A stretch of DNA of 64,000 bases from positions 9,565 to 73,564 of the forward strand of contig DEAI01000006.1 of NCBI GenBank assembly GCA_002346675.1, read 5' to 3'. Below the pieces are notes generated by a model. The model made no database searches and was not told where the DNA came from. It saw only the letters and a program-made list of their open reading frames with translations. A program made the translations under genes and the position numbers. Source of the DNA: Fidelibacterota bacterium UBA2986. GTDB lineage: Bacteria; Fidelibacterota; Marinisomatia; Marinisomatales; AB-629-J13. Below are positions 18-50,058 of this stretch, piece by piece; within the stretch, counting starts at the first letter, position 1; the number at the start of each line of letters is the position of its first letter.

Positions 18-3000
18 CTATTTTACTAATAGCATTTTCTTAAATCCATGAAAATCACCGGCCTCCACAGAGTAGAAATATACCCCTGAAGATACCGGCA
101 CACCATTAGAATCTGTTCCGTTCCACTGAACAAAATGATAGCCCGCTGGATAGCTCTTGTTAGCCAACTCAGCGATCAGCTGTCCACGTGCGTTAAAAAC
201 AGAAACAGACACATCAGCGATCTCCGGTAGTTCAAACCTGATATTGGTCACCGGGTTAAATGGATTCGGGTAGTTTTGAGAGAGAGCGTACTCTACCGGA
301 AGCGAAATGGTCTTAAATACAACCGGATTTAATCCGTTACCAAAAGCTCCGTTCACCTCAAACTCGAACGCATTTGCCAGCTCTTTTATCTCACCGGTAC
401 TCGCATCCATTACTCCAAAGCGGATATTTTCGCCCTGCTCGTGACCGTAAACCATCATTCCAACGGTGTACCTGTCAGCAACAGGGTGATAGATCGGAGC
501 TGCAATACCACGACACTCTTCACCAACAAAGGCAGCTATGATGTCATCACTATCCATCGACTCTTCGCTGTCAATCATCAGGACTCCTGTGATCGTCATA
601 TTGTGCTCATATCCATGATGATTGACCTCCCACGGGGAGTTCAAAAGCTGAGGCATAATTGTTCTCGCCAATTCTCCAGGTGGGTCTGTGTATAGCAGGG
701 TCGCGTCATCGTTCATATTGATCATGTAACCATCAAGAGGCATCATGTTCTCAAGTCCACCCTCAGCAAACCATCCATAGTTATCATAGTAGGATGCGTA
801 GCTGGTCTGGTTCTTAATGAGCGAACCTGACTCTCCAATGGACTCCAAAGCAGCACCTACCTCGTTACCAGATTGCGGTAAATAGCTGACCCAGTTCCAA
901 CCTGCGGAGAGACCAATAGGTCTGTCAGAGAACACAACAGGCTCACCTGTATAGGAGAGAGTAGCGCTCTCATCCATGCTGATCATGTACATACTCTCAA
1001 CATCGATATTCTCAAGTCCACCCTCAGCAAACCACCCATAGTTATCGTAGTAGGATGCGTAGCTGGTCTGGTTCTTAATGAGCGAACCTGACTCTCCAAT
1101 AGACTCCAAAACAGACGCAACACCGAGATCATCGCCCTCTACGTTCAAGCTAAACCAGTTCCAACCTGCGCTTAGGTCAACATCTACGGTTAAATCATAT
1201 TCCGCTGCCTCTGGAGTGGCACACGCTTCATTTGAGTGGCCAGACTCTGATCCATCTTGGAAGACCTGAGTAACGGTATAGCAGTACTCCACATCGCCCG
1301 CTAGTGGGGCATCAGTAAACGAGCTGCTCTCTACACCTTCAGCTGCCAAAGCACCATCACGGTAGACATTAAAAGTATCTTCTCCCGGCTCACTGCTCTC
1401 ACCAGGTACAACAACTAAATGCAGAGACGTAAACGCAGGATTATCTAGCACCAGAGAATTCTCAACGGTCATATCTACGCTGATCATATTACCTCCAAAT
1501 GCATCCTGGAGTGTAAATGATCCGTGAGCGCTGAGTCCCGCATTGCTCCAAGAAAGCTCAATATAATTATCCACATCGTACATTAGCGCGACCTCATAGA
1601 CATGCTCAACACCAACATCGTCTAAGTTACCATTTAATACCTGGCTATAGAATCTGTCTCCGTTCCAAACCAGCGCTGCATCAAATGCAGGCGGAGGAGG
1701 GGCTGGAGGCGCAAAAGAATCTGTTTCCTCATCATAGCCATCAGTGGCATCAGGTGAAAGACCTATGGTAAGATCATAGGTTCCGCCCTGAGTTCCACCG
1801 GAAGAGTTAAAGGTAAATGTAAAATCTGGTGTACCCTCAGGCGGTGGCACCGGCTCAAATGGTGTCATATGTAGCTTTAAGGTATTTAACGCAGGATTAC
1901 AAGATTCGGCTGAACTCTCAGCGGTCATATCAATCTCAAAAAGAATTCCGCCAAATGCATCTCTCAAGTAAAAACTACCGAGCTCTGACCATCCAGCATT
2001 GTCCCAGGACGCTGTAACACATCCATCTGTTCCGTACTGGAGCAGGACATCTACGACATGCTCACTGTAGTCCACATCACCCCCTAGAATCTGCGTATAA
2101 TATCTGTCACCACCCCAGCCCAGGGCCGCATCAAATGCAGGTGGAGGAGGCGCAGGTGGCGCATATGTGTCAGTGCCAGCATCGTATCCATCGGAAGCGT
2201 CCGGCGAAAACCCTGTCACCAAGGACAGAGTCTGCCCGTCACCGCTCACATCAACCTGGATAGTAAAATCTGCTCCATCATCACGATTATTATCATTGAT
2301 CGCATCCCAAGACAGATGAACTTCTTCAATACCAGCGATTGCGGTCAAGTTAGAGGGCGCAGGTGGCGGAGGAGGAGTGATGTCTATGACATCACCTTCA
2401 TCACGCGGCTGAATTTTATATGCACCATATGAAAAATAGAGCGGTCCGGTAACTACGTACTCATCCCCTGCTGCAGCTTCATAGCCAAACATCTGGTCAT
2501 CTATCCTCGCGGATCCAGAGTCATCGTTAATGGACCACTCACCATAGCCAAGGTCACTCTCATCACACACACCTGAGGTGGTAACGAGAACACCCTCGTA
2601 GGCCTCATCATTAACCTCAGCGGTACTCAATACTACCGGCTCCGGCAGCGGAACACCGCTTTCTAACAACTCAGCAGACACATACACCAATTCCGTCAAT
2701 CCATAATATTCCTCTACAATACCGGTGAACTGTCCCAAGTCACCTAACTCAACATTCTCAGGCTCTTCACCCGCAAATACCCAAATACCGTTCCAGGCAC
2801 CAGACCCATCCTGTATATAAACTCCATTGCTAGCTATTGCCGTGACAACACCCACGGTCGTTACCTCTTGCCCCGCATATGGAGATTCTTCTGCCTGTCC
2901 CTGGATCTCGTAGATCGTTATTGGACCAGGTGGCGGGCCAGCTACTGCAGGCGTCACCTTGAGCTTCAATGTGTTTAGCGCAGGGTTATCTAAATAGAGT

Positions 3001-6000
3001 GAATTATCTGCTAACATATCAACACTGACCAGCATACCGCCAAAGGCATCTTCCAGTGCAAACGTACCTTGATCACTCCAGCCACTATTATCCCACTCAA
3101 GCGTTATAGAACCATCAGCTCCAAACTGCAGTAGGACATCCCAAACGTGCTCTTCAAGGTCATCCTCAGAGCCATTCAGAATCTGAGTATAGTAGCGGTC
3201 ACCGCCCCAACCAAGCGCTGCATCAAAGGCAGGTGGAGGAGGCGCTGGAGGCGCATATGTATCAATACCAGCGTCATATCCGTCAGTTGCATCAGGAGAA
3301 AAACCAAAGCTCATTGTCAAGCTCTGATCATCGCCGGTTGCGGTAATTGTATTTGTGAAATTGGGATCACTGGAAGGAGTTGGACATCCGCTCCACGGAT
3401 GAGGATCAAGCACCAGATCACCATCGGTAAGTAAAAATCCACGATTGCTCCACTCAACGTTATAGGCACACTCATCGGGAACATCCTCAACTATATCCCA
3501 GCCACCACATGTATATTTATATTCGTATGCAACATCTGAGGCATAGAGCACCATGGATGTAGTAAAGACACCGTCAACATCTTCATCAGAGAGCTCAGCT
3601 CCCCAGCCGGACCAGTTGTCCATTGAGCCGGTCACCCAGGGATTACCCGCACACTGGGAATCCGTAAGCTGAAATGTAACGCTATACTCTGGAGCACATG
3701 ACTGACAGGGCACGGTAAATCCCGTATCTCCCGTCACACTGCCATCAGGACCAACAACTACCGTCGGGTTTGAATCAAAACCTGCCAACGAGGGCAGCCA
3801 GATTCCCCACTCAGAGCCGTCATTCTCTATAGCTCCCCACTCGTAGCTTCCCGCCTCAAGGTCAAGGGTAAGGGTCCACGTTCCGCTGGCAGGATCAGTA
3901 TTGTTCATGTCAACGTTGGCCCAGTCTGTCATGGTTCCCTTGAGCTCAACATCCTGGTAATTATTACCATCATCAACAACGGTAAATGTTACTGGATGCG
4001 TGTCCGGCTCACCCGAACCGGGCAGCGGAGTTACTAATAATTTTAATCCGGTAAAGGCAGGGTTATCCACTGTAAGTGAATTGTCTGCTAGCATATCCAC
4101 ATTGATCATCATACCGCCAAAGGCATCCTGAAGAACACAGGAACTCATAAGGTCTGACCAGCCTGCGTTGTCCCAGGACAACTCAACAAGACCATCTGAC
4201 CCAAACGCAAGAGCAACACCATATTCATGCTCAACCAGGTCATCAGCCGATCCATTCAGAATCTGCGTATAATATCTATCTCCAGCCCAATTTAATGCTG
4301 CATCAAATGCAGGTGGAGGAGGCGCAGGAGGCGCATAATTATCTATACCGTCATCAAATCCGTCTGTAGCATCTGGCGAAAATCCAAATGTCAATGTATA
4401 TGAAGAGCCCTCTCCGGACGCCATAATATCAGCTGAAAAATCTGGGTCGCCCGCAGGTGGTGGTGGCGGCTCATCACCAGGACATCCGCTCCACGCGTGC
4501 TGCTCTAGAACCATGTCGCTCTCTCCAAGAACAAATCCACGGTTGCCCCACTCTACATTGTAGGCACACTCATCTGGAACATTCTCAACTTGATCCCATC
4601 CGCCACAGGTATACTTATATTCGTATGCGGCTTCCTGAGGTATAAGAGCCATGGTTACACTTGAAACACCGTCACCATCCTCATCAGAGAGCTCAGCTCC
4701 CCAGCCGGACCACCCGTCCATAGAACCGGTCACCCAGGGGTTGCCCTCACAGGGGTCATCTGTCAACTGAAATGTAACATCATATGTAGCGGGAGGCTGA
4801 AGCTCATCACAAAAACCGTCACCGCAAATACCAAAACATGCGTTTACAGTAACATCATCCTCTCCCCACTCAAGAAACCTGTCGTTCCAGTTATCGGGAT
4901 CTGCACAGTCCTGTCCAGCAATATTTTCCTTACAATCCCAGCCACAATCACCATTTAGATATGTATGGTGAGAGCCCGTGCTTGCAGGGCGGGTCAGCGT
5001 AATTGTCCAGATATCATCACCATCATCATCGCTCATGGCATTATCAGCGGGACCACCAAAGAGCGCGCCGCCACCAACAAATACACTATTGCCAGTTTCA
5101 ACACTGCTCATATCCAGGTTAAAGGTGATATCAACGGTTGGAATATCAACACACTCTCCATCAACACACTCCTGCCACGGACCACACTCAACATCTGCGC
5201 AGGGGTCTGTATCTATAGACTCCGCTGTCTTAAGAGTAAATGTCCAGTAGCCAGGACCAAAATTGATAAACACTGTCATGGTGGTTTCATCATCAGAGAC
5301 TGTCGCATCATAGGTAATGGACTCCGGAGCGTCATCAGGACTGGTTAGCTCACCTCCATTAACTGCCTTTGCGAGACCTAAAAAGGCACCGACACCGTTC
5401 AAGGTTACCGTACCAAAGTTCCAACCATCACCAGACGCAAAAGCGTAAGAGTAGGTTGCAGGATTTGAACCATCATGAGGATAAACCGGCGCTCCACAGC
5501 CCTCCGGCTCTCCACCTGACTGCCAGCCCTCTATCCAGGTTTCATCCTGTAAAACATTTGAAAATGTACCATCTTCATTAAAAATATATTCATCGTCAAA
5601 GAGACACGCCCTTGTGGCGACATCCTCTTCGCTGTTTGCCCACCAACTTCCATCATTTGGGTTGGGACCTACAGCCAACGCTCCCGCCTGAGGCGCGAGC
5701 CTCCAGGTTGTTTTTATATCAATTTCCGGCGGCCCGTCACCAGCACATCCGCTCCATGGGTGAGAGTCAAGGATCATATTATTTGAGAGGACAAATCCAC
5801 GGTTGCTCCACTCTACATTGTAGGCACACTCATCTGGAACATTCTCAACCTGATCCCATCCGCCACAGGTGTACTTGTATTCATAGGCAACATCTGAGGC
5901 ATTCAAAACCATCGATACCATATACATACCATCACCATCGCCATCAGAGAGCTCAGCTCCCCAGCCGGACCAGTTGTCCATGGAGCCGGTTACCCAGGGA

Positions 6001-10007: not shown

Positions 10008-10226
10008 TTTTAATTCCTCCATTATAATTGACTTCAAATTTCAATAATCATTTTGGTATAAAAAACTTTAAACCCCACCCATCCTATCGTAAACGAGAAC
10101 AAAGCGAGATCATCTTCTCTCACACCAAACCTTACTACTTCTAAAATCTTTTCGGCAGAACACCTTTATAGCAAAAATATTGCGACTCTCTCCGACTGCC
10201 TTTTCCCATACCCTCCAACAAGAAAT

Positions 10227-10258
10227 CATGCGGGAGCGGCCTTTGCCGCCCCCGCATG
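10227..10258 (-). terminator. Rho-independent terminator of the 2,472-aa gene
   Basis: Minus-strand RNA is CAUGCGGGGGCGGC-AAAG-GCCGCUCCCGCAUG, a 14-bp stem with one G-U pair, followed by AUUUCUUGUU. It starts ~12 nt after the stop at 10271-10273. Confidence 0.8.
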
Positions 10259-10270
10259 ACCATGTTTTTT

Positions 10271-13200
10271 TTATTTCATCAAAACCATCTTCTTCATAGC
10301 GTGAAAGTCTCCCGCGGTGATCATGTATAGATATACACCACTTGAAACCGGCTCGCCCTGAAGATTGTGACTGTCCCACACAACACTGTGGAAACCAGCA
10401 GGCACGTGCGCCTGAACCAGGTCAGCTACTTTCTGTCCCATCATGTTGTAAACAGCGATGGATACATCAGAAGCTTCCGGAATCTGATAGCTGATATTTG
10501 TCACAGGATTGAACGGATTCGGAAAATTCTGCTCAAGACCAAAGGCCTCCGGAACTTCCGGTACCCTGTTCAGGGTCATATGAGTTACGCTTCCTGGAAG
10601 AGAAACGGTTCCCATTCCATCCAAGACGATCTCTTCGCCATCTGCTGCAAGCACCCACAGCATGTAGTCACCGGCATCCTTAACAATGTTGTACTCAATG
10701 ACCAGCTCACTGGAGGGGTTCATCACATCAATAACAGCTGCATCTTCAGCGATCTTTGTGTCACCCGCAAAACGGACATCAAAAGCTCCATCAAAAGGCT
10801 TTGGCGGCAGACTGTGGCTCAGCGCGAGCTCCTCTGTTACCTCAACACCAAAGTGAAGTTTCATTCCGTTTACTGTCAGCGAGTTAGCTGTCAGCTCAGC
10901 TCTAGTTCTCGGCAACGAAGCGCCGGATGAGAGATAGACCATTCCATCCGCTGACGCTCTCAGCCAGTATCCCTTTCCAGGTGTAACTGCGTTCACCGGC
11001 TCTGAGTATGGATACCCATAGAGCGTTCCCTCTATGACTACACCGTCTGGGTCATCAATCCCTGCATCCTGAGATACTGAACCAATGAGATTCCAACCGG
11101 CAGATAGTGAGATACCAAGGTCATCAACTGGATCACCGGTCTGAGTGTCTGACCCATCAGAGTCAAATCTCAGCCAGTATCCCTGTCCGTTGTTTAGCGC
11201 ATCAACCGCAACATATGGATACTCATAGAGCGTACCTTCAATGTGTCCGCTAAAGAGATCTCCGACACCGTTTGCGTCTGTACCAACTGCCAAACTAACC
11301 ATGTTCCAGCCAGCTGAGTGATCCACTGTAACATCCACCGTACTGGTACCGCCAGCAGCTGCGCAGGCCTCTTCAGATGGATCTGAGTAGATACCACCAT
11401 CAATAGCGTAAACCCAACCACAGACTTCGTCTCCATCACCGAAACCATAAATGGTTATCGATGTTTCCACTGTCTGAAAGCAGTAGTCCGTACCGGCAAA
11501 TGCAAAACACAGCTCAAAGATAATATCTCTGAGACCGTGCTCAAATTCAAAGCTGCCGTCATTAATATTGAACTGCGATGCAGACACATCACGTCCCCCA
11601 GAACTAATAGTAAAAGAGGTGCTCTCCATGGTAGTAAAGTCACCGCCAGAGGCGAGAATCGTTCCATCATCCAGAGACAGCTCATAGTATCCTTCACCAT
11701 AGCTACAGCAAATACCATCTCCATAGGCGTCATAGATCGTGAACGTATAGTCACCATCTTCCAGCTCAACAGGGGTGCTGTACATTGTGTTGCTCTCATA
11801 ACCTTCACCATTTGCTACAATGTTACCATCTGCATCAGCTATATCCCAGGAGGTCTCGCTACCATAGTTATCTGTAAGTATGTCTACATTGACCACGGTT
11901 CCGCTCGGCTCTGGGAAATCATAATCCCAGGACCAGGTTATTGCGGGATAGTCCGCCCCATCGACGTTAAGCCATCCGCCCTCTGCGACCACATTGGATG
12001 GTGCGTCAGGAGGCTCAACATATACCAACATTGCACATGCTGGGCTTGACGGAGGACTCTCTATTCCCCCAGAACTCGCTGTAACTTCGTAGCAGTACTC
12101 CACATTTTCTACAATGTCAGAGTCTTCAAATCCAGTCAGCAACATATCTGAGGCAATGGCCGCGCCGTCACGGTATACTGTGTAGGTGGTCTGCTCAAAA
12201 TCAATAAGCTCAACTACCATTGTATATGTACCCTCAAACGCTCCATTCCAGAAATCACCAACGGCAAAATTTGCAACCATTGGATGGTCTGAGTTGTTTG
12301 TCCATGTAACATCGTGCTCAGTAAGATCAGGACTGTAGACTTGGGTATAGGACTCATCTAACTCAAAAACCCAGATACCTACGTCCATATTACCTGAGAC
12401 ATCTACATCACCCTCTGTAACAACGAGGCGCAGACTCTGACCGTTGTTTACCGAGATCTGAAACCAATCGGGGTCAACAGAACAGTGCACAAGGTCATAG
12501 GTTCCCGGACCAATGTCCCAGGAAGTACCTGAGCCATCATTGTCCTCATATTCATCGTCAACACATTCCTCTACAGACTCGCCCTCTTCAATGGTAAATG
12601 CAAACGGTCCTGAATCGTAGGCATTATACCAGTAGAGATATAGATCCTGCCCAGCTGTCACATTAAACTCGACAGTTGAGGGACCATAATAACCACAGCA
12701 GTCATCGTTGTAGGTTAGGATGTCGGTATAACTTCCCTCTTCATTTGTCTCACAAGAGCCCAGAACGTATAGATAGGTGTCCCAAGCTGCGTCATCAGTT
12801 TCATTCTGAGATGAGATCGTTATGCTGCCATCTGCACCAACTGAATAATGAAACCACTGGCTCTCACCGCTGGCGTCATTGCTTCCCCCAGAGGCAGAAA
12901 GAGGATACTCACATACCTGACCATCATAAACACAGCTGCCATCATCTTCCGTAGCATCTGGGTTATAGTTTGCAGCGTCAGGATCTGTACAGCCAAAAAC
13001 ATCCACTGAACCGCCAACCTCAAAGCTGGTCGAACCATCGGTGCCACTTTCAAGGGTCCAGTTCAGATATACCGTTCCATCAGTTCCGGTAACGGTAAGA
13101 TAGTTCCCGTTCCATCCATCACCATAAGAATCTGCACCGGTAACATCATAGTTTCCGCCTTCAAGACACTCTTCGCTGGTGTAAGGTGCTCCCCCAGAGA

Positions 13201-16200
13201 ATGAGGAACCATCTTCACCATTTATGGTCCACGATACCTCACTCTGCCAGCTTCCGCCGTCACAGGATATTATAACCTCTGTGGCATTGCACTCCGGTGG
13301 TGGAGGAGGCTCATCGCCATCTACAAAAAGCGTTCCGCTATAGGGAGCTCCGCCATCCAAAAGGACTTCACCACTTGCAACATCGCTGATTGTCCATGAG
13401 ACTTCACTCTGATAGCTTCCGCCATCGCAAGATACACTGTAGCTTCCATTATCAATATCTAAATACTCTTCTGCATAGTTGCCAGTATCAAAGGTAAAGC
13501 AGCTCTGCTCATATCCGCCACCGATACACAGCTCATTACCGTTCCAACCGTCACCCCAAGAATCATACATCTGAACTAAGAGAGTAGCTCTGACATCTTG
13601 GTCCACGGTCTGTGCTCTAGCCTGAGCGATTAGCTCCTGGAGCTCAGCATGCGAGGAGGCAACGCTGTTGCGGCCGCTTGACATTATTTGCTGGAATTTT
13701 TTCTCATTGTTATAAGCTTCCAACGCGGCAGGGTTTCCATGCCCATAAGGATGGAGACCTGATATTTTAAGCTCATCTTTGCTTTGGTTTAGAGCTTTTT
13801 TAGATCCAGGCCTGTCTATTGAATACTGCCTATTAGATGCGGTACCCATGTCACCAAACTCACCTGACCGTCCACCGGGTGAAACATATGGCGGATCCCA
13901 AGCAAGATCTATGGACTCTACCAAAGGAGTAGCTGTCAGGTTTTGTGGACACTCAGGACAGTCCACACCCTCAACCCCAATGGTCAACTCATAGGTAATT
14001 GGATCTTCACCTGCGTAGTAGATAACACCCACATATACTGTCATGGGGTCATCCGACAGATTTGCATAGGTTGCCGCCTCAGTGGCATCCCAGTTTCCGC
14101 TTCCCGCGAGGTCATCACCGCCACCCCAATCACAAATTCCATCGCCATCATAGTCCTCAACAAACAGGTCAATATCGTTACCTGCGTCACCTGTTCCCAA
14201 AGTGGAAACATTCAGGTTTGACCATGGGCCTACTGTGACAACGCTCCAGTCAATTGCCGTAAAACCACCAGGCTGCACAGCACCATCTGGGTTGTCTGAT
14301 GTACACAGCGCATAGCCCCAGGTACCGTTCTCACCGTGATCTGTTGCAATATCTTTTGTGTCATCATCCTCATACATGTCATCAGCGCACAAGCCCTCTG
14401 CTCCTACCGTGAGCTCATAATCACCCATCATACCACCGTAGCCATCTACCACTATATAGTAGGTGTTTCCGGCTACCAGGTCAACCGACAAACTGCTCAG
14501 CCAGCTGGTGTGAGAGTTAGCACACTCATCATCGTTACATCCAGCCAAAACACTTGCGTCGTTTTCATAGACATAGACCTTGGTGTCGTAATAGGTACCC
14601 TCACCGCAGAGACTTATATCTACAGATATATCCTCGGTAGCATCATATCTGTACACCACATCCGGAGATGTACTCCCTGCGTATGGACATACCTCATCAT
14701 AGTTATCATAAAATCCTAATGTTGTACCAAAAGTGGTAAATGGGATCGCACCCACAACAAACGGATCGTCCATTGTATCACCCTCAATACCGGCGATCGA
14801 TGAAGCACAGGCCTCATTTGAGTGCCCCGATTCCTCTCCACCAGGGAGCATCTGTGAGACCGTATAACAGTTCTCAACATCGGGCTCTACATCGCCATCA
14901 AAATAACTTACACCTGTAATACCTTCCGCAATGGGATCGCCATAGCGAAACACATTGAAAGTTGGCACATACAACTCCTGAACATCAACGGTGAGCTCAA
15001 AGTCCTGGTCAGGCTCCAACATTGCAGGAAACAAGATAGAACCCATCCCACCACCATAGCCGTCTTCAGTTATCGTAAACTCGTGGGAAATGCACGTACC
15101 ATCAAAGGTATAGCTACTTACCAACCAGTCATCACAGCCACAGTCATCCATAACAATGATACCGGTATTGGTCATACCCTCAGCACCACAGAGCGTGATA
15201 CTTACGGAGTTGTTCGCATAGGGAAGCTCTATATCATACCACACCGCATACCAATCTAATACGCCCTCACAGTCTACGGTAGAGCTTGATGTTGTACCAC
15301 TTACGGTTACCGGATATGGGCCGCTAACTGGCTCAGCATCTTCACAGAGATCATTTGCCGGTGCAGGATACTCACAGCAGCCATCATCAATGGTAGGGTC
15401 TCCAACACTCATGCCCTCACAGTTATATCCATAGTTTGTAGCATTGACATCTGTACAGCCGAGCACCTCACCGGTTTCACCCAACTCTAAGATACCCGAG
15501 TACGGGGCACCTCCAGACAACAGCTCTTCACCAGAATTGGTGTCAACTATTTGCCAGGAAACCTCGCCCTGCCAGGAACCACCATCACAGCTGACATCAT
15601 AGACACCATCTGCCAAACTCAGGCTTGCTGTTCCGTCTGTTCCGGATTCCAATGTAAATGAATTTTCACCGATCATAAGCACGTTTCCGTTCCACCCGTC
15701 TCCGTAGGAATCCTGCATATTGATGGTAAGATCCGTGTCTCTCAAATTAAGGTCAGTATCAGCGATATTTGTTGATACATTGTAGAACCCAGATGCGTGC
15801 CTTACTTCGGGCTCATCACCTTTAGCAGGGTTGCTACCAAAAAGGTCCACCACGTCCGTGTTCGTTGGGGTTGCAGTGAGAGCGTTTGTGACAACAGGCT
15901 CCCAGCTCAGATTGACCCCTCCGGGTACACCCTCAGCAGAAAGGGTCGGCTGATTTGGGTTATTAAAAGCGGTAACTGTCAACACATAGTCACCAAAGGA
16001 AGAGCCATAGCCAAAGACCTTGACCCAGCCCGTACCAGGAGTAACAGGCATAAGCGTGAACTCTGACTGCAAACCGCAAAAATCATCGTTCTCTACGAGA
16101 AAATTATCACAGCCATTCCAGATCTCCATCTTTGTATCAAAGCCAGAGCCACACAGAGACACTGTAAGATTATCATAATCATCATCTACATCAAAGGAGT

Positions 16201-17689
16201 ACCAGCGATAGTCACCGGGCTCTGTGGTTGCTCCGGTTGCCGAATCTCCATTGACATCTACGGTGAGCGGAAATTCACACAGCATACCTAAATCATAGAC
16301 ACATGATCCGTCATCCACTGTGGCATCTGGGTTGTAGTTCAGCGCTTCTGAATCAGTACAACCAAAAACATCTTCCACTTCACCCAATGAAAATATTCCA
16401 TCATGGGGCGCTCCACCTGAGGCCACATTACCGCTGCCATCGGTATAATCTAGACTCCAGCTCACCTCACTTTGGTAGGAACCATAGTCAACAACAATGC
16501 TGTAGTTTCCATCAGCAACACAGAGCACATCGGCTCCCTCTGATCCCTCATCCAATGTTCCCTCAGCTACTAAATTGCCGTCGGATAGATCGTTAATGAT
16601 ATACACATTGCCGTTCCACCCATCTCCATAGGTATCATACATTGACATTGTGATATCATTGGCATCACACTCATCGTACTCGCATGAAGCGTCATCTATA
16701 TTGGCATCAGGGTTATAGTTATTTGCCTGTGGATCAGTACATCCTTCTACGGCAGCCGTCCAGCCAATCTCAAAGTCAGCGGGGTCTGCTGTATACCATC
16801 CGGCAATACGAATGTGAATTGTACTTCCAATTCTTCCCTCAGTTGACTCTCCATAGTAGTCAACACCGGTGGCATGAAACAGCTGCTCAAAGTACTGGTA
16901 GCCATAATTAATAAAATCGGCATAACTGCCATACTCATCCAAACCACAAGTACCAATAGCCTGAATCATTTCATATTCTGGATAGCTGACCGTAAGAATA
17001 CCTGCCTCAGGTATGGTAAAAGTATACCATCCCTCTCCGCCATCGTGAGCATTGGTACCAACAGCTCCCTCTAAAGGATATTCACACACATCACCGTTAT
17101 AAAAACAGCTGCCGTCATCTGTATTGGCAGACTCATCATAATTGATTGCATCGGGGTCTGTACACCCATATACCGGAATGTCACCACCGACGGTAAACAT
17201 AAATGAACCCTCAGCGCCGCTGTCTATGGTTCCCTGACCAAGCACATTGCCATCGGGATCAGAAAACGATATAGTTCCCCCGTTCCACCCATCACCATAG
17301 GAGTCATAAAGATATACTGTAAAATCACCATCCTCCAAGGATAACACCACTGTAGGAGTACCATCGCCACCCGCACCGGAGTCTACGATGTTGGAGTTAG
17401 CATCCATCACCTCCCATGAATTTTCAGTGGACCAACTTCCAGGAACATATTCCCGGGTAACTTCGGTACTTCTAAATCCAGGGGTGTAATTTACTTCTCT
17501 CACGATAGTATCTGGTGTATTTCCAGACTCATAATATTCTGCTTTTTCCTTTTCAATCAAGGACTGAGCATATTCATTTGTTGCTTTGGTTGGATCAACC
17601 AGCCTCTGGTTCTCCACCTCTGCAAAGACAGAGGTAACCATAAGAGCGGCTACAAAGCTAAACAATATGGATTGTTTAAGTAGTTTCAT
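10271..17689 (-). CDS. Giant (2,472 aa) acidic modular secreted surface protein with a T9SS C-terminal sorting domain. Carries repeated 'GDGWNG'/'SEVSW' modules, pre-peptidase-C-terminal (PPC)-like beta-sandwich modules and Fn3-like modules. No catalytic domain recognised.
   Basis: Uninterrupted ORF. AGGAG lies 7 nt upstream of ATG 17689. Signal peptide is MKLLKQSILFSFVAALMVTSVFA. 'DDEYEDNDGSGTSWDIGPGTYDLVHCSVDPDWFQISV' and 'DDMYEDDDTKDIAT...' fit the PPC-domain pattern. C-terminus 'EQNFPNPFNPVTNISYQIP...SGVYLYMITAGDF..KKMVLMK' is a T9SS tail. Confidence 0.85.
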   Translation of the reverse strand: MKLLKQSILFSFVAALMVTSVFAEVENQRLVDPTKATNEYAQSLIEKEKAEYYESGNTPDTIVREVNYTPGFRSTEVTREYVPGSWSTENSWEVMDANSNIVDSGAGGDGTPTVVLSLEDGDFTVYLYDSYGDGWNGGTISFSDPDGNVLGQGTIDSGAEGSFMFTVGGDIPVYGCTDPDAINYDESANTDDGSCFYNGDVCEYPLEGAVGTNAHDGGEGWYTFTIPEAGILTVSYPEYEMIQAIGTCGLDEYGSYADFINYGYQYFEQLFHATGVDYYGESTEGRIGSTIHIRIAGWYTADPADFEIGWTAAVEGCTDPQANNYNPDANIDDASCEYDECDANDITMSMYDTYGDGWNGNVYIINDLSDGNLVAEGTLDEGSEGADVLCVADGNYSIVVDYGSYQSEVSWSLDYTDGSGNVASGGAPHDGIFSLGEVEDVFGCTDSEALNYNPDATVDDGSCVYDLGMLCEFPLTVDVNGDSATGATTEPGDYRWYSFDVDDDYDNLTVSLCGSGFDTKMEIWNGCDNFLVENDDFCGLQSEFTLMPVTPGTGWVKVFGYGSSFGDYVLTVTAFNNPNQPTLSAEGVPGGVNLSWEPVVTNALTATPTNTDVVDLFGSNPAKGDEPEVRHASGFYNVSTNIADTDLNLRDTDLTINMQDSYGDGWNGNVLMIGENSFTLESGTDGTASLSLADGVYDVSCDGGSWQGEVSWQIVDTNSGEELLSGGAPYSGILELGETGEVLGCTDVNATNYGYNCEGMSVGDPTIDDGCCEYPAPANDLCEDAEPVSGPYPVTVSGTTSSSTVDCEGVLDWYAVWYDIELPYANNSVSITLCGAEGMTNTGIIVMDDCGCDDWLVSSYTFDGTCISHEFTITEDGYGGGMGSILFPAMLEPDQDFELTVDVQELYVPTFNVFRYGDPIAEGITGVSYFDGDVEPDVENCYTVSQMLPGGEESGHSNEACASSIAGIEGDTMDDPFVVGAIPFTTFGTTLGFYDNYDEVCPYAGSTSPDVVYRYDATEDISVDISLCGEGTYYDTKVYVYENDASVLAGCNDDECANSHTSWLSSLSVDLVAGNTYYIVVDGYGGMMGDYELTVGAEGLCADDMYEDDDTKDIATDHGENGTWGYALCTSDNPDGAVQPGGFTAIDWSVVTVGPWSNLNVSTLGTGDAGNDIDLFVEDYDGDGICDWGGGDDLAGSGNWDATEAATYANLSDDPMTVYVGVIYYAGEDPITYELTIGVEGVDCPECPQNLTATPLVESIDLAWDPPYVSPGGRSGEFGDMGTASNRQYSIDRPGSKKALNQSKDELKISGLHPYGHGNPAALEAYNNEKKFQQIMSSGRNSVASSHAELQELIAQARAQTVDQDVRATLLVQMYDSWGDGWNGNELCIGGGYEQSCFTFDTGNYAEEYLDIDNGSYSVSCDGGSYQSEVSWTISDVASGEVLLDGGAPYSGTLFVDGDEPPPPPECNATEVIISCDGGSWQSEVSWTINGEDGSSFSGGAPYTSEECLEGGNYDVTGADSYGDGWNGNYLTVTGTDGTVYLNWTLESGTDGSTSFEVGGSVDVFGCTDPDAANYNPDATEDDGSCVYDGQVCEYPLSASGGSNDASGESQWFHYSVGADGSITISSQNETDDAAWDTYLYVLGSCETNEEGSYTDILTYNDDCCGYYGPSTVEFNVTAGQDLYLYWYNAYDSGPFAFTIEEGESVEECVDDEYEDNDGSGTSWDIGPGTYDLVHCSVDPDWFQISVNNGQSLRLVVTEGDVDVSGNMDVGIWVFELDESYTQVYSPDLTEHDVTWTNNSDHPMVANFAVGDFWNGAFEGTYTMVVELIDFEQTTYTVYRDGAAIASDMLLTGFEDSDIVENVEYCYEVTASSGGIESPPSSPACAMLVYVEPPDAPSNVVAEGGWLNVDGADYPAITWSWDYDFPEPSGTVVNVDILTDNYGSETSWDIADADGNIVANGEGYESNTMYSTPVELEDGDYTFTIYDAYGDGICCSYGEGYYELSLDDGTILASGGDFTTMESTSFTISSGGRDVSASQFNINDGSFEFEHGLRDIIFELCFAFAGTDYCFQTVETSITIYGFGDGDEVCGWVYAIDGGIYSDPSEEACAAAGGTSTVDVTVDHSAGWNMVSLAVGTDANGVGDLFSGHIEGTLYEYPYVAVDALNNGQGYWLRFDSDGSDTQTGDPVDDLGISLSAGWNLIGSVSQDAGIDDPDGVVIEGTLYGYPYSEPVNAVTPGKGYWLRASADGMVYLSSGASLPRTRAELTANSLTVNGMKLHFGVEVTEELALSHSLPPKPFDGAFDVRFAGDTKIAEDAAVIDVMNPSSELVIEYNIVKDAGDYMLWVLAADGEEIVLDGMGTVSLPGSVTHMTLNRVPEVPEAFGLEQNFPNPFNPVTNISYQIPEASDVSIAVYNMMGQKVADLVQAHVPAGFHSVVWDSHNLQGEPVSSGVYLYMITAGDFHAMKKMVLMK

Positions 17690-48738: not shown

Positions 48739-50058
48739 TTAATGTGATACCGGCAAAAGTGAATGCACCCGATTCGATTGATAAATTTTATTGGTCTGTA
48801 CCGATTGGACCATTGACACAACATAGAAAAAAGGATTATCGTTGGAATATCCTTCCGGTTTTAAGAGAGATATTCGTGATGTATACATCTCATCCTTAGT
48901 AAGTGAACTGAATTCAGCACTTGAATTTAGATCTCTCATGACCTGCATATGAATCAGCTCACCATTGAAAGCTGCATATTCTATACTATCCTCAACAACT
49001 ACTGCCCAAATCTTCACCACATCATTGATTGTATTAAACGGTCGCACTTCCAAATCAACAATAATGCTGTCACCACTAGCTGATAGATCATAAGTGTGTC
49101 CTAAATACATGTCACTTTCCTGTGCAATTTCAGATAAAACGATGCTATTGGCATTATTTTCTACGGGACTCTGTCCATTCAAAATGTGAACACCGTTAAT
49201 TAAAACGACAGGACAAAACAGAATATTGTACATTGTCCGTCTTAGCTCAACATCAGCCGGATTATAATCATACATAGGGTCGATTGGCAGCGGTGAGTTC
49301 CAGTGATATCGAATTATAGTTATATTTTGGTCATAATCATACAAAATATCATCCAAAATATGGTTTACCGGTACACATGGACTGCAACCTACATTCGTAA
49401 ACAATTCCAATAATACCGAGTTGGCATCTTCACAATTATTTGATTGATCATCATCACAATATCCACAGCCATCAACTACAGCATTACCCCCCCAATTTCC
49501 TGAACAGTCCTGAACACAATCATTGCTGTAATCCTCATCGCAAACATTACATTCATCTAAATATGCTCCCCCCCCACATTCACCATTACAGTCCTTTTCT
49601 GTACCATCCGGATAGCCTGGACATGCACAATCACTATCTCCATTACAAACTCCACAGTTATCAATAAGTGCTGTCCCGTTACACCTTCCTAAACAATCCA
49701 ACTCCCCCGGACATGCGATCACCGATAAATCAAAATAAAGAACGGATTTAGAATAATCTGAGTTTACCTGAAATTTTAACAGTGAAGGTCCCTGCTCCTT
49801 ACCATAAAATATAATATTGTTTTTACTTACGGAGACAATATTTACCTTACTCGTATCAGAAATAGTTAATAGTTGTGGTGTCCCAATTACTTTATTCAGT
49901 TGACTCATTAATGAGTCCAAATTATAATATAAAGTGTCTTTATGAATTAAATTATTTGAAATCACAATTTCATCTACGGGAGGGTCCACTGCATTCGGAA
50001 TTAAATCACATCCAAAATAAATAAGAAAAATACTGACCAAGAAAAAATGATTTTTCAA
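48739..50058 (-). CDS. Lipoprotein with a Cys-rich 'DxCGxCxGD' repeat region and a thioredoxin-fold CSPC domain (Cys paralog of the Sec candidate)
   Basis: MKNHFFLVSIFLIYFGC (lipobox). The Cys-rich block is at 49432-49713 (IDNCGVCNGDSDC, LDECNVCDEDYSNDC, VDGCGYCDDDQSNNC). LLELFTNVGCSPCVP has its CxxC at 49375-49386. 4-nt overlap with the upstream OMP gene. Confidence 0.75.
   Translation of the reverse strand: MKNHFFLVSIFLIYFGCDLIPNAVDPPVDEIVISNNLIHKDTLYYNLDSLMSQLNKVIGTPQLLTISDTSKVNIVSVSKNNIIFYGKEQGPSLLKFQVNSDYSKSVLYFDLSVIACPGELDCLGRCNGTALIDNCGVCNGDSDCACPGYPDGTEKDCNGECGGGAYLDECNVCDEDYSNDCVQDCSGNWGGNAVVDGCGYCDDDQSNNCEDANSVLLELFTNVGCSPCVPVNHILDDILYDYDQNITIIRYHWNSPLPIDPMYDYNPADVELRRTMYNILFCPVVLINGVHILNGQSPVENNANSIVLSEIAQESDMYLGHTYDLSASGDSIIVDLEVRPFNTINDVVKIWAVVVEDSIEYAAFNGELIHMQVMRDLNSSAEFSSLTKDEMYTSRISLLKPEGYSNDNPFFYVVSMVQSVQTNKIYQSNRVHSLLPVSH

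What the first reader, a model, noticed from the sequence alone, without database searches (positions are those of the whole stretch)
18..17689. Two tandem giant T9SS cargo genes (about 3,330 + 2,472 codons) built only of binding or structural modules
These two genes occupy 27% of the window.

- **Shared properties.** Both products are secreted, with a signal peptide and a T9SS tail. Both are extremely Asp/Glu/Gly/Thr-rich with very few Lys/Arg.
- **Composition.** I recognise carbohydrate-binding-like, PPC-like, Fn3-like, LTD and OB-like beta-sandwich modules. I cannot recognise any hydrolase, protease or nuclease catalytic motif.
- **Transcription.** Each gene appears separately transcribed, since a strong terminator at 10227-10258 lies between them.

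This looks like a pair of giant particle- or polysaccharide-binding adhesins, or possibly S-layer/sheath components. Several of their module types are unassigned (see separate findings).
Basis: partly seen in the sequence, partly recalled or inferred. Interest (0 to 1): 0.7.

Follow-up and report, generated by a model that had tools for sequence, protein, structure and literature searches.

The report
Giant sticky surface proteins of SAR406
Two real, back-to-back giant genes of an uncultured ocean bacterium (Marinimicrobia/SAR406) encode extremely acidic, enzyme-free cell-surface proteins made of about 55 small beta-sandwich modules, many resembling starch/glycogen-binding modules. They are most likely polymer- or particle-catching adhesins, a known kind of protein built partly from undescribed modules.

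Summary
**Observation: confirmed.** Both ORFs lie on the minus strand: P1 at window 18-10007 (3,329 aa) and P2 at 10271-17689 (2,472 aa).

- Both have a Sec signal peptide and a T9SS type A C-terminal domain.
- Both have D+E about 17% and K+R about 2%.
- A -36 kcal/mol hairpin lies between them.
- Identical proteins occur on 5-8 contigs in the NCBI, JGI, ENA and Tara collections, so they are not assembly chimeras.
- The organism is a Candidatus Marinimicrobia (SAR406) MAG. Both proteins are annotated "hypothetical".

**No catalytic domain found.**

- P1 contains nine CBM20/48-clan modules; five keep the Trp/Lys/Trp glucan-binding triad.
- P1 also has an LTD and two ExeM/NucH-type OB modules without the EEP nuclease domain.
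- P1 has one 185-aa module seen elsewhere with GH16 and CBMs.
- P1 has seven copies of an orphan 150-aa module. Its AF2 model (pLDDT 96) has no PDB neighbour.
- P2 is built of PPC/collagen-binding-domain-like sandwiches, "SYGDGWNG" sandwiches, Cys-knots and split Fn3 domains.

**New here.**

- The P2→P1 pair, with its hairpin, is conserved in four loci.
- P1 module number varies between relatives (1,375-3,329 aa).
- The array continues outside the window with two more giant cadherin-like genes; the complete one carries a T9SS tail.

**Verdict:** non-catalytic, surface-anchored multivalent binders. This is a new variant of a known kind, of moderate interest.

The parts
18..10007 (-). P1 coding sequence (3,329 aa; MBH49429.1, which is annotated 5 codons longer). 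Module order: SP, A-B-C, A-C, LTD, knot, OB, A-B-C, U1430, C', C, A-B-C, A, OB, Fn3(N half), A, A, Fn3(C half), E, E, preCTD, CTD.
   Evidence: ORF; translation; module map from self-comparison and HMMs; exact match in public collections.
10271..17689 (-). P2 coding sequence (2,472 aa; MBH49428.1). Contains SP, a K/E-rich N-terminal segment, six 'SYGDGWNG' beta-sandwich (G) modules, five Cys-knots, seven PPC-like modules, three split Fn3-like domains, a basic linker, E modules, preCTD and CTD.
   Evidence: Collinear full-length orthologs at 42-65% identity.
10224..10261 (-). Intrinsic-terminator-like hairpin 10 nt after the P2 stop codon: 17-bp stem, AAAG loop, T-rich tail TTTCTTGTT.
   Evidence: dG -36 kcal/mol, z = -7.0. 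Equivalent hairpins follow the P2-like stop codon in L001, L002 and L004.
10015..10020 (-). Shine-Dalgarno-like GGAGGA, 7 nt upstream of the P1 ATG at 10007.
   Evidence: Sequence.
9939..10007 (-). P1 Sec signal peptide (aa 1-23).
   Evidence: Read from the sequence: MNSPSTVTKLFFVSFLATGLFAQ|G.
17621..17689 (-). P2 Sec signal peptide (aa 1-23).
   Evidence: Read from the sequence: MKLLKQSILFSFVAALMVTSVFA|E.
21..278 (-). P1 T9SS type A C-terminal sorting domain (aa 3244-3329).
   Evidence: TIGR04183 35.0 bits (cut-off 23); FlgD_ig 42.1 bits.
10274..10531 (-). P2 T9SS type A C-terminal sorting domain (aa 2387-2472).
   Evidence: TIGR04183 38.9 bits; Por_Secre_tail 36.0 bits.
9492..9938 (-). A1, the first of seven orphan 'A' modules of about 148 aa (motif APPAPPPPAFDAAL). 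The other copies are at 8412-8852, 6369-6815, 4005-4451, 2937-3371, 1842-2279 and 1404-1829.
   Evidence: Alignment of the seven copies, mean column identity 68%. No Pfam hit at E<=1. No PDB hit by sequence profile. AF2 pLDDT 96.1, all-beta. No Foldseek PDB hit at E<=1e-3. Unrelated to C, G/PPC and U1430 by hhalign.
9192..9482 (-). B1, a CBM48-like module. Other copies at 6069-6359 and 3699-3995.
   Evidence: Pfam AMPK1_CBM 34.6 bits summed over P1, 17.7 bits for one copy. Homologous to C: hhalign probability 95.9%, E = 5.5e-9. Weak PDB hits to pullulanase, SEX4 and AMPK.
8853..9185 (-). C1, a CBM20/48-clan module with the motifs GSMDNW, YEYKY and GGW. Other copies at 8073-8402, 5733-6062, 4464-4790 and 3372-3692, plus a degenerate C' at 4794-5144.
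   Evidence: The C profile hits the AMPK beta CBM (E = 1.4e-4) and the glucoamylase starch-binding domain 1ac0 (E = 2.9e-4). Both binding-site Trp and the Lys align. C regions in relatives coincide with Pfam CBM_48, CBM_20 and X25 hits.
7638..8066 (-). Lamin-tail domain (LTD).
   Evidence: Pfam PF00932, 49.7 bits against a cut-off of 34.3.
6819..7424 (-). OB1, the accessory OB-like module of ExeM/NucH-type nucleases, here without the EEP domain. Second copy, OB2, at 2364-2930.
   Evidence: NCBIfam matches only positions 25-308 of 884 (ExeM) and 2-109 of 546 (ExeM_NucH_DNase). The profile hits residues 2-80 and 209-239 of PDB 9sf8/9sf9 at E = 2e-11.
5172..5726 (-). U1430, a single 185-aa module (WRLAP...GALAVGP...WW...RACLFDD...TWIEGWQ) belonging to a populous family that is not in Pfam.
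   Evidence: 880 cluster representatives at E<=1e-3. Among 43 members: T9SS tail in 24, CBM48/AMPK1_CBM in 5, X25 in 4, CBM20 in 4, GH16 in 2, CBM4_9 in 2, and CBM6, CBM35 and SKN1 in 1 each. No PDB sequence hit.
1212..2363 (-). Split Fn3-like domain of P1. The N half is at 2280-2363 and the C half at 1212-1388, with A6 and A7 nested between them.
   Evidence: Rejoining the halves in silico raises the Pfam RGI_lyase (Fn3-like) score from 21.1 to 31.8 bits, and the match then spans both halves.
12581..13294 (-). The G5-knot-PPC6 segment of P2 that was modelled (aa 1462-1705; the part coordinates cover modules aa 1466-1703).
   Evidence: AF2 pLDDT 91.6, all-beta. Foldseek: ColG tandem CBD 5iku (E = 2.9e-4, probability 1.0), PPC 5sv5 (TMt 0.61), ColH CBD 3jqw (TMt 0.64).
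12032..13960 (-). Split Fn3 of P2. The N half is at 13886-13960 and the C half at 12032-12193. They enclose the basic linker, G4, G5, a knot, PPC6 and PPC7. A second split Fn3 (N half 15884-15955, C half 14801-14974) encloses G3, a knot and PPC3.
   Evidence: Rejoined halves match Pfam fn3 at E = 3.9e-4 over profile positions 3-80 of 84; fn3 was not among the hits for the C half alone. For the second case the score rises from 14.6 to 21.9 bits. Both halves are conserved in orthologs.
684..1202 (-). E1-E2 tandem modules of P1, related to P2 aa 2080-2230, followed by the preCTD module at 279-680.
   Evidence: Self-comparison and P1/P2 cross-comparison. No Pfam family.

Best explanation
P1 and P2 are non-catalytic, cell-surface-anchored giant binding proteins (adhesins) of a Marinimicrobia/SAR406 bacterium.

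**Export and anchoring (inferred from the two sorting signals).** Each protein is exported by Sec through its signal peptide. The type IX secretion system then recognises its type A C-terminal domain. By analogy with Bacteroidota type A cargo, the CTD is cleaved off and the new C-terminus is attached to the outer-membrane surface. The N-terminus would then be the distal tip.

**Shape (inferred).** The mature chains are strings of about 25-30 small beta-sandwich modules. Parts are looped out of split Fn3 domains. The chains are polyanionic (net charge about -490 and -375). They could reach tens of nanometres from the cell.

**P1.** It is a multivalent glycan catcher.
- It has nine CBM20/48-clan modules, five of which keep an intact Trp/Lys/Trp site. 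This gives avidity for alpha-glucans such as glycogen or starch-like storage polymers.
- One U1430 module comes from a family found elsewhere with GH16 and CBMs.
- Two OB modules are of the kind that ExeM/Xds nucleases need in order to act on DNA. They may add binding of extracellular DNA.
- Seven orphan A modules, one of them at the distal tip, have no assigned ligand.

**P2.** It is made of PPC/collagen-binding-domain-like and related sandwiches. It is the conserved partner encoded immediately upstream. It most likely acts as a second binding or spacer fibre of the same surface structure.

**What is shown and what is inferred.** Shown: gene integrity, sorting signals, module homologies and folds, absence of recognisable enzymes, and conservation of the gene pair. 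Inferred: surface anchoring, the ligands, and cooperation of the two proteins.
For: **Real, conserved genes.**
- Exact copies are found in up to 8 contigs from several collections.
- P2 has end-to-end collinear orthologs at 65, 43 and 42% identity, with conservation spread over all modules.
- The order P2-like then P1-like, on the same strand and with a hairpin in between, recurs in L001, L002 and L004.

**Sorting signals.**

**Glycan binding in P1.**
- The C profile hits the AMPK beta CBM and the glucoamylase starch-binding domain. The binding-site Trp, Lys and Trp align and are kept in all five C copies.
- B is homologous to C.
- Relatives of P1 carry Pfam-significant CBM_48, CBM_20 and X25 hits exactly where my C model matches.
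- The U1430 family co-occurs with GH16, CBM4_9, CBM6, CBM35 and CBM20/48.

**OB modules.**
- They match the N-terminal accessory region of a solved EEP nuclease at E = 2e-11.
- In ExeM and Xds that OB region is required for nuclease activity, while the LTD is dispensable (PMC6085458, PMC6746945).

**No enzyme found.**
- No catalytic family in Pfam or NCBIfam, and no PDB sequence hit for either full-length protein.
- Both models are all-beta.
- The P2 segment matches binding and spacer domains: ColG/ColH CBD, PPC, the C-terminal domain of C. perfringens enterotoxin, and CUB-EGF-CUB.

**Neighbours.** The two further giant genes downstream are also built only of repeat domains (Big_9, cadherin-like, PKD, fn3; the second is cut by the contig end). 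The complete one carries a T9SS tail.
Against: - No binding was measured, so all ligands are assigned by homology.
- Single B and C copies fall below Pfam's cut-off. The 34.6-bit AMPK1_CBM score is summed over copies.
- P2 has no module with a known ligand. PPC-type domains are often mere spacers.
- The A module (about 1,030 residues of P1) and the G, E, preCTD and U2030 modules have no assigned function. A small or novel catalytic activity cannot be excluded by the absence of hits.
- T9SS machinery, amylases and glucanases of the host were not examined. None is in the window.
- Expression is unknown.
Confidence: 0.6

Rival explanations
1. Structural coat. The four giant acidic proteins are the main building blocks of an S-layer-like or sheath-like envelope. 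It would serve as a cation-binding, protective or anti-grazer/anti-phage layer, and the CBM-like modules would bind the cell's own surface glycans rather than external substrates.
For: - Four tandem genes totalling more than 8,900 codons lie in a small genome, all with K+R about 2% and built of repeated modules.
- The gene pair is conserved beside housekeeping genes, including dnaA in L001 and L002.
- P2 has no ligand-specific module.
- Stand-alone and tip-located A modules could mediate self-assembly.
Against: - No SLH or known S-layer family was hit.
- P1 module number is highly variable between relatives (1,375 to 3,329 aa). That is typical of adhesins and less so of lattice proteins.
- The canonical starch-site residues are kept in five C copies.
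Confidence: 0.2
2. Scaffold. P1 and/or P2 act like a cellulosome or amylosome scaffoldin. The orphan A modules or the Cys-knots would be docking sites that recruit separately secreted enzymes or the small stand-alone A-module proteins.
For: - The A module also occurs as secreted proteins of about 165 aa and as A+CTD proteins of 257 aa.
- Relatives of P2 carry Pfam dockerin (PF00404) and cohesin (PF00963) hits.
- One A-bearing fragment carries an EEP domain (P0161).
Against: - No cohesin or dockerin hit in P1 or P2 themselves.
- The genomic context of stand-alone A proteins shows no enzyme partner pattern.
- No A-A or A-partner interaction has been tested.
Confidence: 0.1
3. Hidden enzyme. One of the unassigned modules (A, U1430, G, preCTD) is a novel small catalytic domain, so the proteins would be giant surface hydrolases or lyases.
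For: - The A and U1430 modules have invariant Asp, His, Arg and Glu residues.
- The A fold has no PDB neighbour, so its function is open.
Against: - All modules are 80-200 aa.
- The two segments that were modelled are all-beta.
- Seven-fold repetition of A and six-fold repetition of G is typical of binding or spacer modules, not of catalytic ones.
- U1430 occurs in 2-5 tandem copies and sits beside true GH16 domains in other proteins.
Confidence: 0.06
4. Artefact. The giant ORFs are assembly concatenations of shorter paralogous genes.
For: P1 is highly repetitive at the protein level.
Against: - Identical full-length sequences occur on up to 8 contigs across the NCBI, JGI, ENA and Tara collections.
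- DNA repeats are only 60-87% identical.
- The reading frames of 10 kb and 7.4 kb are uninterrupted.
- P2 has collinear orthologs.
- There is a single signal peptide and a single CTD per ORF.
Confidence: 0.01

Closest known systems
Giant T9SS-secreted surface adhesins of Bacteroidota (e.g. SprB and RemA of Flavobacterium johnsoniae)
   Same: - Thousands of residues built of repeated beta-rich modules.
- Sec signal peptide plus a C-terminal T9SS sorting domain.
- Displayed on the cell surface, with no catalytic domain.
   Different: - The CTD here is type A (TIGR04183), as in LPS-anchored cargo, rather than the type B CTD described for SprB (from my own knowledge).
- No SprB-type repeat was hit.
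- The host is a planktonic Marinimicrobia, and no link to gliding is known.
- The modules are CBM20/48, LTD, OB, PPC-like and orphan types.
Non-catalytic multi-CBM starch-binding surface proteins (SusE/SusF of Bacteroides; Sas6/Sas20 of Ruminococcus bromii)
   Same: Tandem starch-binding beta-sandwich modules without a catalytic domain, held at the cell surface to capture alpha-glucan by avidity.
   Different: - Those proteins are small (about 40-70 kDa). They are lipoproteins or bind through dockerins, and they are encoded beside amylases and transporters.
- P1 is 357 kDa and T9SS-anchored. It also carries A, LTD, OB and U1430 modules.
- P1 sits among housekeeping genes.
ExeM / Xds / NucH extracellular nucleases
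   Same: The LTD followed by the OB-like accessory region is homologous.
   Different: The EEP catalytic domain is absent. Each OB module is followed directly by an A module or by the N half of the split Fn3 domain, so P1 can at most bind nucleic acid, not cut it.
Clostridial collagenase PPC / collagen-binding domains (ColG s3a-s3b, ColH s3)
   Same: The modelled P2 segment has the same beta-sandwich fold, also arranged in tandem.
   Different: - Sequence similarity is not significant.
- There is no peptidase domain.
- The modules alternate with Cys-knots and 'SYGDGWNG' sandwiches.

Membership tests
T9SS type A cargo | N-terminal Sec signal peptide | tested here: met
   Read from the sequence only: a basic n-region, a hydrophobic core of about 14 residues, and AQ|G or FA|E cleavage motifs. 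No dedicated predictor was available.
T9SS type A cargo | C-terminal sorting domain matching TIGR04183 / PF18962 above the curated cut-off | tested here: met
   TIGR04183 scores 35.0 bits (P1) and 38.9 bits (P2) against a cut-off of 23. PF18962 scores 36.0 bits for P2 and 25.1 bits for P1, against a cut-off of 27.
T9SS type A cargo | Host encodes the T9SS machinery (SprA/Sov, PorKLMN, PorU/PorV) | not testable with these tools
   Among the 20 window genes scanned, no T9SS machinery component was found. The rest of the MAG could not be fetched. NCBI names relatives 'T9SS type A sorting domain-containing protein [Candidatus Marinimicrobia]' (P0202).
CBM20/CBM48 starch-binding modules (P1 modules B and C) | Significant sequence match to the family | tested here: met
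   - The C profile matches the AMPK beta CBM at E = 1.4e-4 and the glucoamylase starch-binding domain at E = 2.9e-4.
- AMPK1_CBM scores 34.6 bits summed over P1. A single copy scores 17.7 bits, below the cut-off of 26.8.
- B and C are homologous: hhalign probability 95.9%.
- C regions in relatives coincide with Pfam-significant CBM_48, CBM_20 and X25 hits.
CBM20/CBM48 starch-binding modules (P1 modules B and C) | Conserved binding-site aromatic and Lys residues (W100, K126, W133 of AMPK beta1; numbering from my own knowledge) | tested here: met
   GSFNNW aligns with GSMD(N/G)W, and YKF...GQW aligns with YEYKY..GGW, in all five C copies. The degenerate C' lacks them.
CBM20/CBM48 starch-binding modules (P1 modules B and C) | Binding of alpha-glucan | not testable with these tools
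   Requires recombinant modules and binding assays.
ExeM/NucH/Xds extracellular nucleases | LTD plus OB-like accessory region | tested here: met
   LTD 49.7 bits. ExeM model positions 25-308 of 884. PDB 9sf8 N-terminal region at E = 2e-11. All 7 OB segments tested (two from P1, five from relatives) match the start of the ExeM_NucH_DNase model.
ExeM/NucH/Xds extracellular nucleases | EEP (endonuclease/exonuclease/phosphatase) catalytic domain | tested here: not met
   No PF03372 hit. NCBIfam scores of 79 and 66.6 bits are far below the cut-offs of 1,300 and 300, and they cover only the N-terminal parts of the models. Residues after each OB are occupied by A modules or, after OB2, by the N half of the split Fn3 domain and then A6. 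P1 is therefore not a member.
PPC / collagen-binding domain (PF04151) | Sequence match above the cut-off | tested here: not met
   Best E-values are 0.089 and 0.51, with 14.1 and 11.7 bits against a cut-off of 25.9.
PPC / collagen-binding domain (PF04151) | PPC/CBD beta-sandwich fold | tested here: met
   The AF2 model (pLDDT 91.6) matches 5iku (E = 2.9e-4), 5sv5 (TMt 0.61) and 3jqw (TMt 0.64), each with probability 1.0. Only PPC6 and G5 were modelled. The other PPC-like modules are assigned by motif resemblance.
SprB-type gliding adhesins | SprB repeats and a type B CTD | tested here: not met
   The CTD matches the type A model. No SprB-related family appears in the Pfam or NCBIfam results.
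Cellulosome/amylosome scaffoldins | Cohesin and/or dockerin modules | tested here: not met
   No PF00963 or PF00404 hit in P1, P2 or their separated modules. Some relatives do have them.
S-layer proteins | SLH or another known S-layer anchoring or lattice domain | tested here: inconclusive
   No such family was hit. S-layer proteins are too diverse for a negative result to be decisive.

The most novel reading that the evidence does not exclude
The window shows half of a SAR406-specific surface organelle. Four tandem genes (more than 8,900 codons) would build a polyanionic, Ca2+-stiffened brush that catches dissolved and gel polymers (alpha-glucan, beta-glucan, extracellular DNA) without any enzyme of its own.

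In this reading:
- The orphan A module is a genuinely new beta-sandwich fold. It would act as the tip adhesin or as the self-association module of the brush.
- The nested split-Fn3 architecture folds the chains into looped bouquets.
- The conserved intergenic hairpin sets the P2:P1 stoichiometry.
Probability: 0.2. Interest if true: 0.7.

Novelty: new variant of a known kind. Interest (0 to 1): 0.45.

Why it matters
Marinimicrobia (SAR406) are among the most abundant uncultured bacteria of the dark ocean and of oxygen-minimum zones (from my own knowledge). How they meet their substrates is essentially unknown.

- **A costly investment.** This genome devotes an array of at least 27 kb to four enzyme-free surface proteins.
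- **A testable prediction.** P1 carries nine CBM20/48-type modules plus nuclease-derived OB modules. This predicts that SAR406 cells physically capture storage glucans, and perhaps extracellular DNA, on their surface.
- **How to test it.** Recombinant modules, glycan arrays, size-fractionated metaproteomes and fluorescent-polysaccharide staining would all address the prediction.
- **Candidates for family curation and structure work.** Several module families are populous yet absent from Pfam: the A module, U1430 (880 cluster representatives at E≤1e-3) and the SYGDGWNG sandwich. The A model is confident and has no PDB neighbour.
- **If wrong.** These are still the largest genes of the organism and conserved as a pair, but they would then be ordinary structural coat proteins.

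Tried and rejected
**Searches that found nothing useful.**
- Pfam scans of 26 separated modules at E≤1 gave almost nothing.
- Whole-protein phmmer searches against PDB gave no hit.
- The U1430 profile against PDB gave only chance hits with E>0.1.
- The A profile against PDB gave no hit.
- The A model against BFVD gave one hit, a "putative hemin binding protein" from an uncultured marine phage (E = 5.5e-5, TMq 0.59). It says nothing about function.
- Four literature searches on Marinimicrobia, T9SS, giant proteins and LTD found no description of these proteins.
- Rfam and tRNA scans found nothing inside the finding.

**Leads that did not resolve.**
- The genome-contig scan with P2 returned only fragments or distant relatives. 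L008 is another tandem pair of giant T9SS genes in a Neomarinimicrobiota MAG, but it is not orthologous.
- The genomic context of the stand-alone A-module proteins P0075 and P0100 showed no informative partner.

**Ideas rejected.**
- **Horizontal transfer as the cause of the higher G+C of the giant genes.** GC3 is 0.43, like the nearby cysK, uvrC and murA. The excess lies in codon positions 1 and 2, so it reflects amino-acid composition.
- **Assembly chimera.** Rejected on the evidence.
- **A as a distant CBM20/48, PPC or U1430 relative.** hhalign probabilities are below 1%.

**A failed submission.** It was re-run without them.

Full report
**1. Observation**

The window holds two very long uninterrupted ORFs on the minus strand: 18..10037 (3,339 codons from an upstream TTG) and 10271..17689 (2,472 codons).

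- **Start of P1.** The best start is the ATG at 10007. A GGAGGA lies at 10020-10015. The resulting 3,329-aa product is the exact sequence held in public collections. NCBI's MBH49429.1 begins 5 codons earlier.
- **Share of the window.** Together the genes span 27.6% of the window.
- **Signal peptides.** Both products begin with a canonical Sec signal peptide.
- **T9SS tails.** Both end in a T9SS type A sorting domain. TIGR04183 scores 35.0 and 38.9 bits against a cut-off of 23, with Pfam Por_Secre_tail and FlgD_ig hits.
- **Composition.** D+E is 16.8% and 17.3%, K+R is 2.0% and 2.1%, and the net charge is -493 and -375. Cytoplasmic neighbours have K+R of 10-19%.
- **Hairpin.** It has 17 bp with 11 G-C pairs, dG of -36 kcal/mol and z = -7.

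Only the strand was left unstated.

**2. Not an artefact**

- The exact P1 sequence was found on 8 contigs of 50 kb to 1 Mb, and P2 on 5. The sources include NCBI, JGI, ENA, Tara and Logan.
- DNA repeats inside P1 are 60-87% identical over 100-300 nt. One 109-nt pair reaches 95%. That is too divergent for repeat-induced mis-assembly.
- P2 aligns end to end with orthologs of 2,611-2,661 aa at 65, 43 and 42% identity. Conservation is spread over all modules.

**3. Organism and context**

- The proteins are MBH49429.1 and MBH49428.1, annotated [quoted passage not shown].
- Neighbours in the window are housekeeping genes: a cysteine synthase-like gene, a ResA-like gene, UvrC, MurA, RecN, TrkAH, PGK and GDH.
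- No T9SS machinery gene was found among the 20 window genes scanned.
- The higher G+C of the giant genes lies in codon positions 1 and 2. GC3 (0.43) matches the adjacent genes. The difference therefore reflects amino-acid composition, not foreign origin.

**4. Anatomy of P1**

Self-comparison and HMMs built from the internal copies account for essentially the whole chain. The order is: SP, A-B-C, A-C, LTD, knot, OB, A-B-C, U1430, C', C, A-B-C, A, OB, [Fn3 N half], A, A, [Fn3 C half], E, E, preCTD, CTD. A-B-C is a thrice-repeated supermodule.

- **LTD.** Pfam-significant at 49.7 bits.
- **B and C modules.**
  - They are homologous to each other (hhalign probability 95.9%, E = 5.5e-9).
  - They belong to the CBM20/48 clan. 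The C profile hits the AMPK beta CBM (E = 1.4e-4), the A. niger glucoamylase starch-binding domain (E = 2.9e-4), a pullulanase and Stbd1.
  - In relatives, the regions my C model matches are the regions Pfam calls CBM_48, AMPK1_CBM, CBM_20 or X25.
  - The two Trp and the Lys that form the glucan site in the AMPK CBM (from my own knowledge of that family) align with GSMD(N/G)W and YEYKY..GGW in all five C copies.
- **OB modules.** They match only the N-terminal parts of NCBI's ExeM and ExeM_NucH_DNase models. They also match residues 2-80 and 209-239 of the solved EEP nuclease 9sf8/9sf9 (E = 2e-11). No EEP domain follows.
  - In ExeM and Xds this OB region is required for nuclease activity, whereas the LTD is dispensable (PMC6085458, PMC6746945).
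- **U1430 (185 aa).**
  - It belongs to a large family that is not in Pfam: 880 representatives at E≤1e-3, often in 2-5 tandem copies.
  - Among 43 members scanned, 24 carry a T9SS tail, 5 carry CBM48, 4 carry CBM20 and 2 carry GH16. CBM4_9, CBM6, CBM35 and SKN1 also occur.
- **A module (7 copies, about 1,030 residues).**
  - It has no Pfam, NCBIfam or PDB sequence relative, and no profile similarity to the other modules.
  - Its AF2 model is very confident (pLDDT 96.1, pTM 0.90, 11 strands). Foldseek finds nothing in PDB at E≤1e-3, with best TM-scores of 0.2-0.3.
  - Relatives are marine and, where named, Marinimicrobia. They include stand-alone proteins of about 165 aa and a 257-aa A+CTD protein. 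In many giant T9SS proteins the A module sits directly after the signal peptide, which would be the distal tip.

**5. Anatomy of P2**

- Pfam and NCBIfam recognise only the CTD.
- The chain alternates several module types:
  - "SYGDGWNG" sandwiches (G, six copies)
  - 20-aa Cys-knots of the form CTDPxAxNYxxxAxxDDGSC, which match MPEG1 residues 332-354 at E = 6e-4
  - PPC-like modules and Fn3-like pieces
  - a basic linker, then E, preCTD and CTD
- An AF2 model of G5-knot-PPC6 (pLDDT 91.6, all-beta) gave these Foldseek matches:
  - the ColG tandem collagen-binding domains (E = 2.9e-4, probability 1.0)
  - the B. anthracis collagenase PPC domain (TMt 0.61)
  - the ColH CBD (TMt 0.64)
  - the claudin-binding domain of C. 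perfringens enterotoxin
  - CUB-EGF-CUB

**6. Split Fn3 domains**

The Fn3-like matches cover only C-terminal halves. Motifs typical of the N-terminal half (PxNLTA...LSW) lie hundreds of residues upstream. I rejoined the halves in silico and scanned them against Pfam.

| Case | C half alone | Rejoined |
|---|---|---|
| P1 | 21.1 bits (RGI_lyase, Fn3-like) | 31.8 bits, above the 27.8-bit cut-off, match spans both halves |
| P2, first | 14.6 bits | 21.9 bits |
| P2, second | no fn3 match | fn3 at E = 3.9e-4, profile positions 3-80 of 84 |

- Both halves are conserved in orthologs.
- The proteins are therefore not simple strings of beads. Blocks such as A6-A7, G3-knot-PPC3 and linker-G4-G5-knot-PPC6-PPC7 appear to be nested inside Fn3 loops.
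- This rests on sequence alone and needs a structural check.

**7. Conservation of the pair, and the larger array**

- The arrangement of a P2-like gene, a strong hairpin and a P1-like gene on one strand recurs in three other loci:
  - L001: 2,382 aa followed by 1,917 aa
  - L002: 2,024 aa followed by 1,375 aa
  - L004: 2,611 aa followed by a gene that begins A-B-C-LTD and is cut by the contig end. This locus is syntenic with the window.
- The hairpin sequences differ between loci while position and strength are kept.
- P1-type genes vary widely in module content (1,375, 1,917, 3,179 and 3,329 aa), whereas P2 is collinear.
- On the 285-kb Tara contig the array continues beyond the window's left edge with g3 and g4.
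  - g3 is 1,328 aa, with Big_9, cadherin-like and PKD repeats and a T9SS CTD.
  - g4 is at least 1,782 aa, with Big_9, cadherin-like and fn3 repeats, and is cut by the contig end.
  - Both have K+R of about 2% and no catalytic family.

**8. Mechanism**

*Shown.* Two intact, conserved genes; Sec and T9SS sorting signals; module homologies and folds; no recognisable enzyme.

*Inferred.*
- Export by Sec and then T9SS.
- Removal of the CTD and anchoring of the new C-terminus at the outer surface, as for type A cargo in Bacteroidota.
- The N-terminal A module as the distal tip.
- Multivalent capture of alpha-glucan by nine CBM20/48 modules, with further specificities from U1430 (a glucan context) and the OB modules (nucleic acid).
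- P2 as a conserved companion fibre or spacer.

I put 0.6 on this non-catalytic surface-binder reading. The rivals are a structural coat (0.2), a scaffold that recruits partners through the A modules (0.1), a hidden enzyme (0.06) and an artefact (0.01).

**9. Comparison with what is known**

- **In function**, the closest analogues are giant T9SS adhesins such as SprB and RemA, and non-catalytic multi-CBM starch binders such as SusE/F and Sas6/Sas20.
- **In membership**, the following hold:
  - T9SS type A cargo: the two testable criteria are met; the machinery was not testable.
  - CBM20/48 clan: B and C qualify.
  - ExeM/NucH family: P1 is not a member, because the EEP domain was tested for and is absent.
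  - Pfam PPC family: not a member at sequence level.
  - SprB-type adhesins and cohesin/dockerin scaffoldins: not members.
- No paper describing these proteins was found.

**10. Verdict**

The kind of protein (a giant, enzyme-free T9SS surface protein) is known. The particulars are new:

- a conserved P2→P1 pair within a four-gene array in SAR406
- a multi-CBM20/48 protein that also carries nuclease-derived OB modules
- nested split Fn3 domains
- several undescribed module families, one of which has a confident model and no PDB neighbour

I rate this a new variant of a known kind, with interest 0.45.

Noticed in passing
Outside the window, left of position 18; L018 20094-24080 and 24328-29673: The array continues beyond the window. 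Two further same-strand giant acidic genes follow P1 on the 285-kb Tara contig. g3 is 1,328 aa, with Big_9, cadherin-like and PKD repeats and a T9SS CTD. g4 is at least 1,782 aa, with Big_9, cadherin-like and fn3 repeats, and is cut by the contig end. A weaker hairpin (9-bp G-C stem, z = -2.3) followed by a T run lies just after the P1 stop codon.
   Followed up: partly
window 1212-2363 (P1); 14801-15955 and 12032-13960 (P2): Fn3-like domains appear to be split, with whole module blocks nested between their N and C halves. Rejoining the halves in silico raises the Pfam scores (21.1 to 31.8 bits; 14.6 to 21.9 bits; no fn3 match to E = 3.9e-4).
   Followed up: partly
window 46838-48403 (-), with 48739-50058 (-) and 50055-51686 (-): A third, smaller T9SS cargo (521 aa, Por_Secre_tail 36.1 bits) lies here. 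By eye, its C-terminal E-like/preCTD/CTD cassette resembles that of P2. It sits next to a 439-aa ORF without a Pfam family and a DUF6029 protein.
   Followed up: no
window 13589-13885 and 17441-17620 (P2 aa 1269-1367 and 24-83): 19 of P2's 52 Lys+Arg residues are concentrated in two short, poorly conserved segments. One is the basic linker nested in a split Fn3, and the other is the N-terminal segment. They could be hinges or processing sites.
   Followed up: no
L001 17150-17210, L002 16076-16130, L004 16988-17040; window 10224-10261: A perfect G+C-rich hairpin of 13-20 bp with a 4-nt loop follows the P2-like stop codon in all four loci. The sequences differ, so the structure is conserved rather than the sequence. 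L002 has a second, 20-bp hairpin further downstream.
   Followed up: partly
P2 knots, e.g. window 12932-12991, 17105-17164, 16301-16360: The 20-aa motif CTDPxAxNYNPxATxDDGSC recurs five times in P2 and once in degenerate form in P1. It is widespread in marine giant proteins. It matches residues 332-354 of human and mouse MPEG1 (perforin-2) at E = 6e-4.
   Followed up: no
P0075 / L019 3884-4381; P0061; P0161: The orphan A module also exists in three other forms: a stand-alone secreted protein of about 165 aa, an A+T9SS-tail protein of 257 aa, and a fragment next to an EEP nuclease domain.
   Followed up: partly
whole window: Third-position G+C is 0.41-0.49 for most genes in the first 28 kb (P1, P2, cysK, resA, uvrC, murA; trkH, trkA and recN are 0.34-0.35). 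It is 0.27-0.35 for genes beyond about 35 kb. This step in composition is unexplained.
   Followed up: no
window 10367-10930 (+) and 11537-12049 (+): Two antisense ORFs of 187 and 170 codons lie inside P2. They are most likely by-products of the skewed codon composition of the giant gene and not genes.
   Followed up: no
window 52446-54137 (-) and 54124-55566 (-); 37130-40120 (+): Two adjacent class I Glu/Gln-tRNA synthetase paralogues overlap by 14 nt. Separately, a 996-aa protein has only a PPDK_N ATP-binding domain recognisable.
   Followed up: no
L008 669-14617: A Black Sea Neomarinimicrobiota MAG (BS750m-G69) carries another tandem pair of giant T9SS cargo genes (1,817 and 2,742 aa). It is not orthologous to P1/P2. 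Tandem giant surface genes may be a recurrent trait of the phylum.
   Followed up: partly
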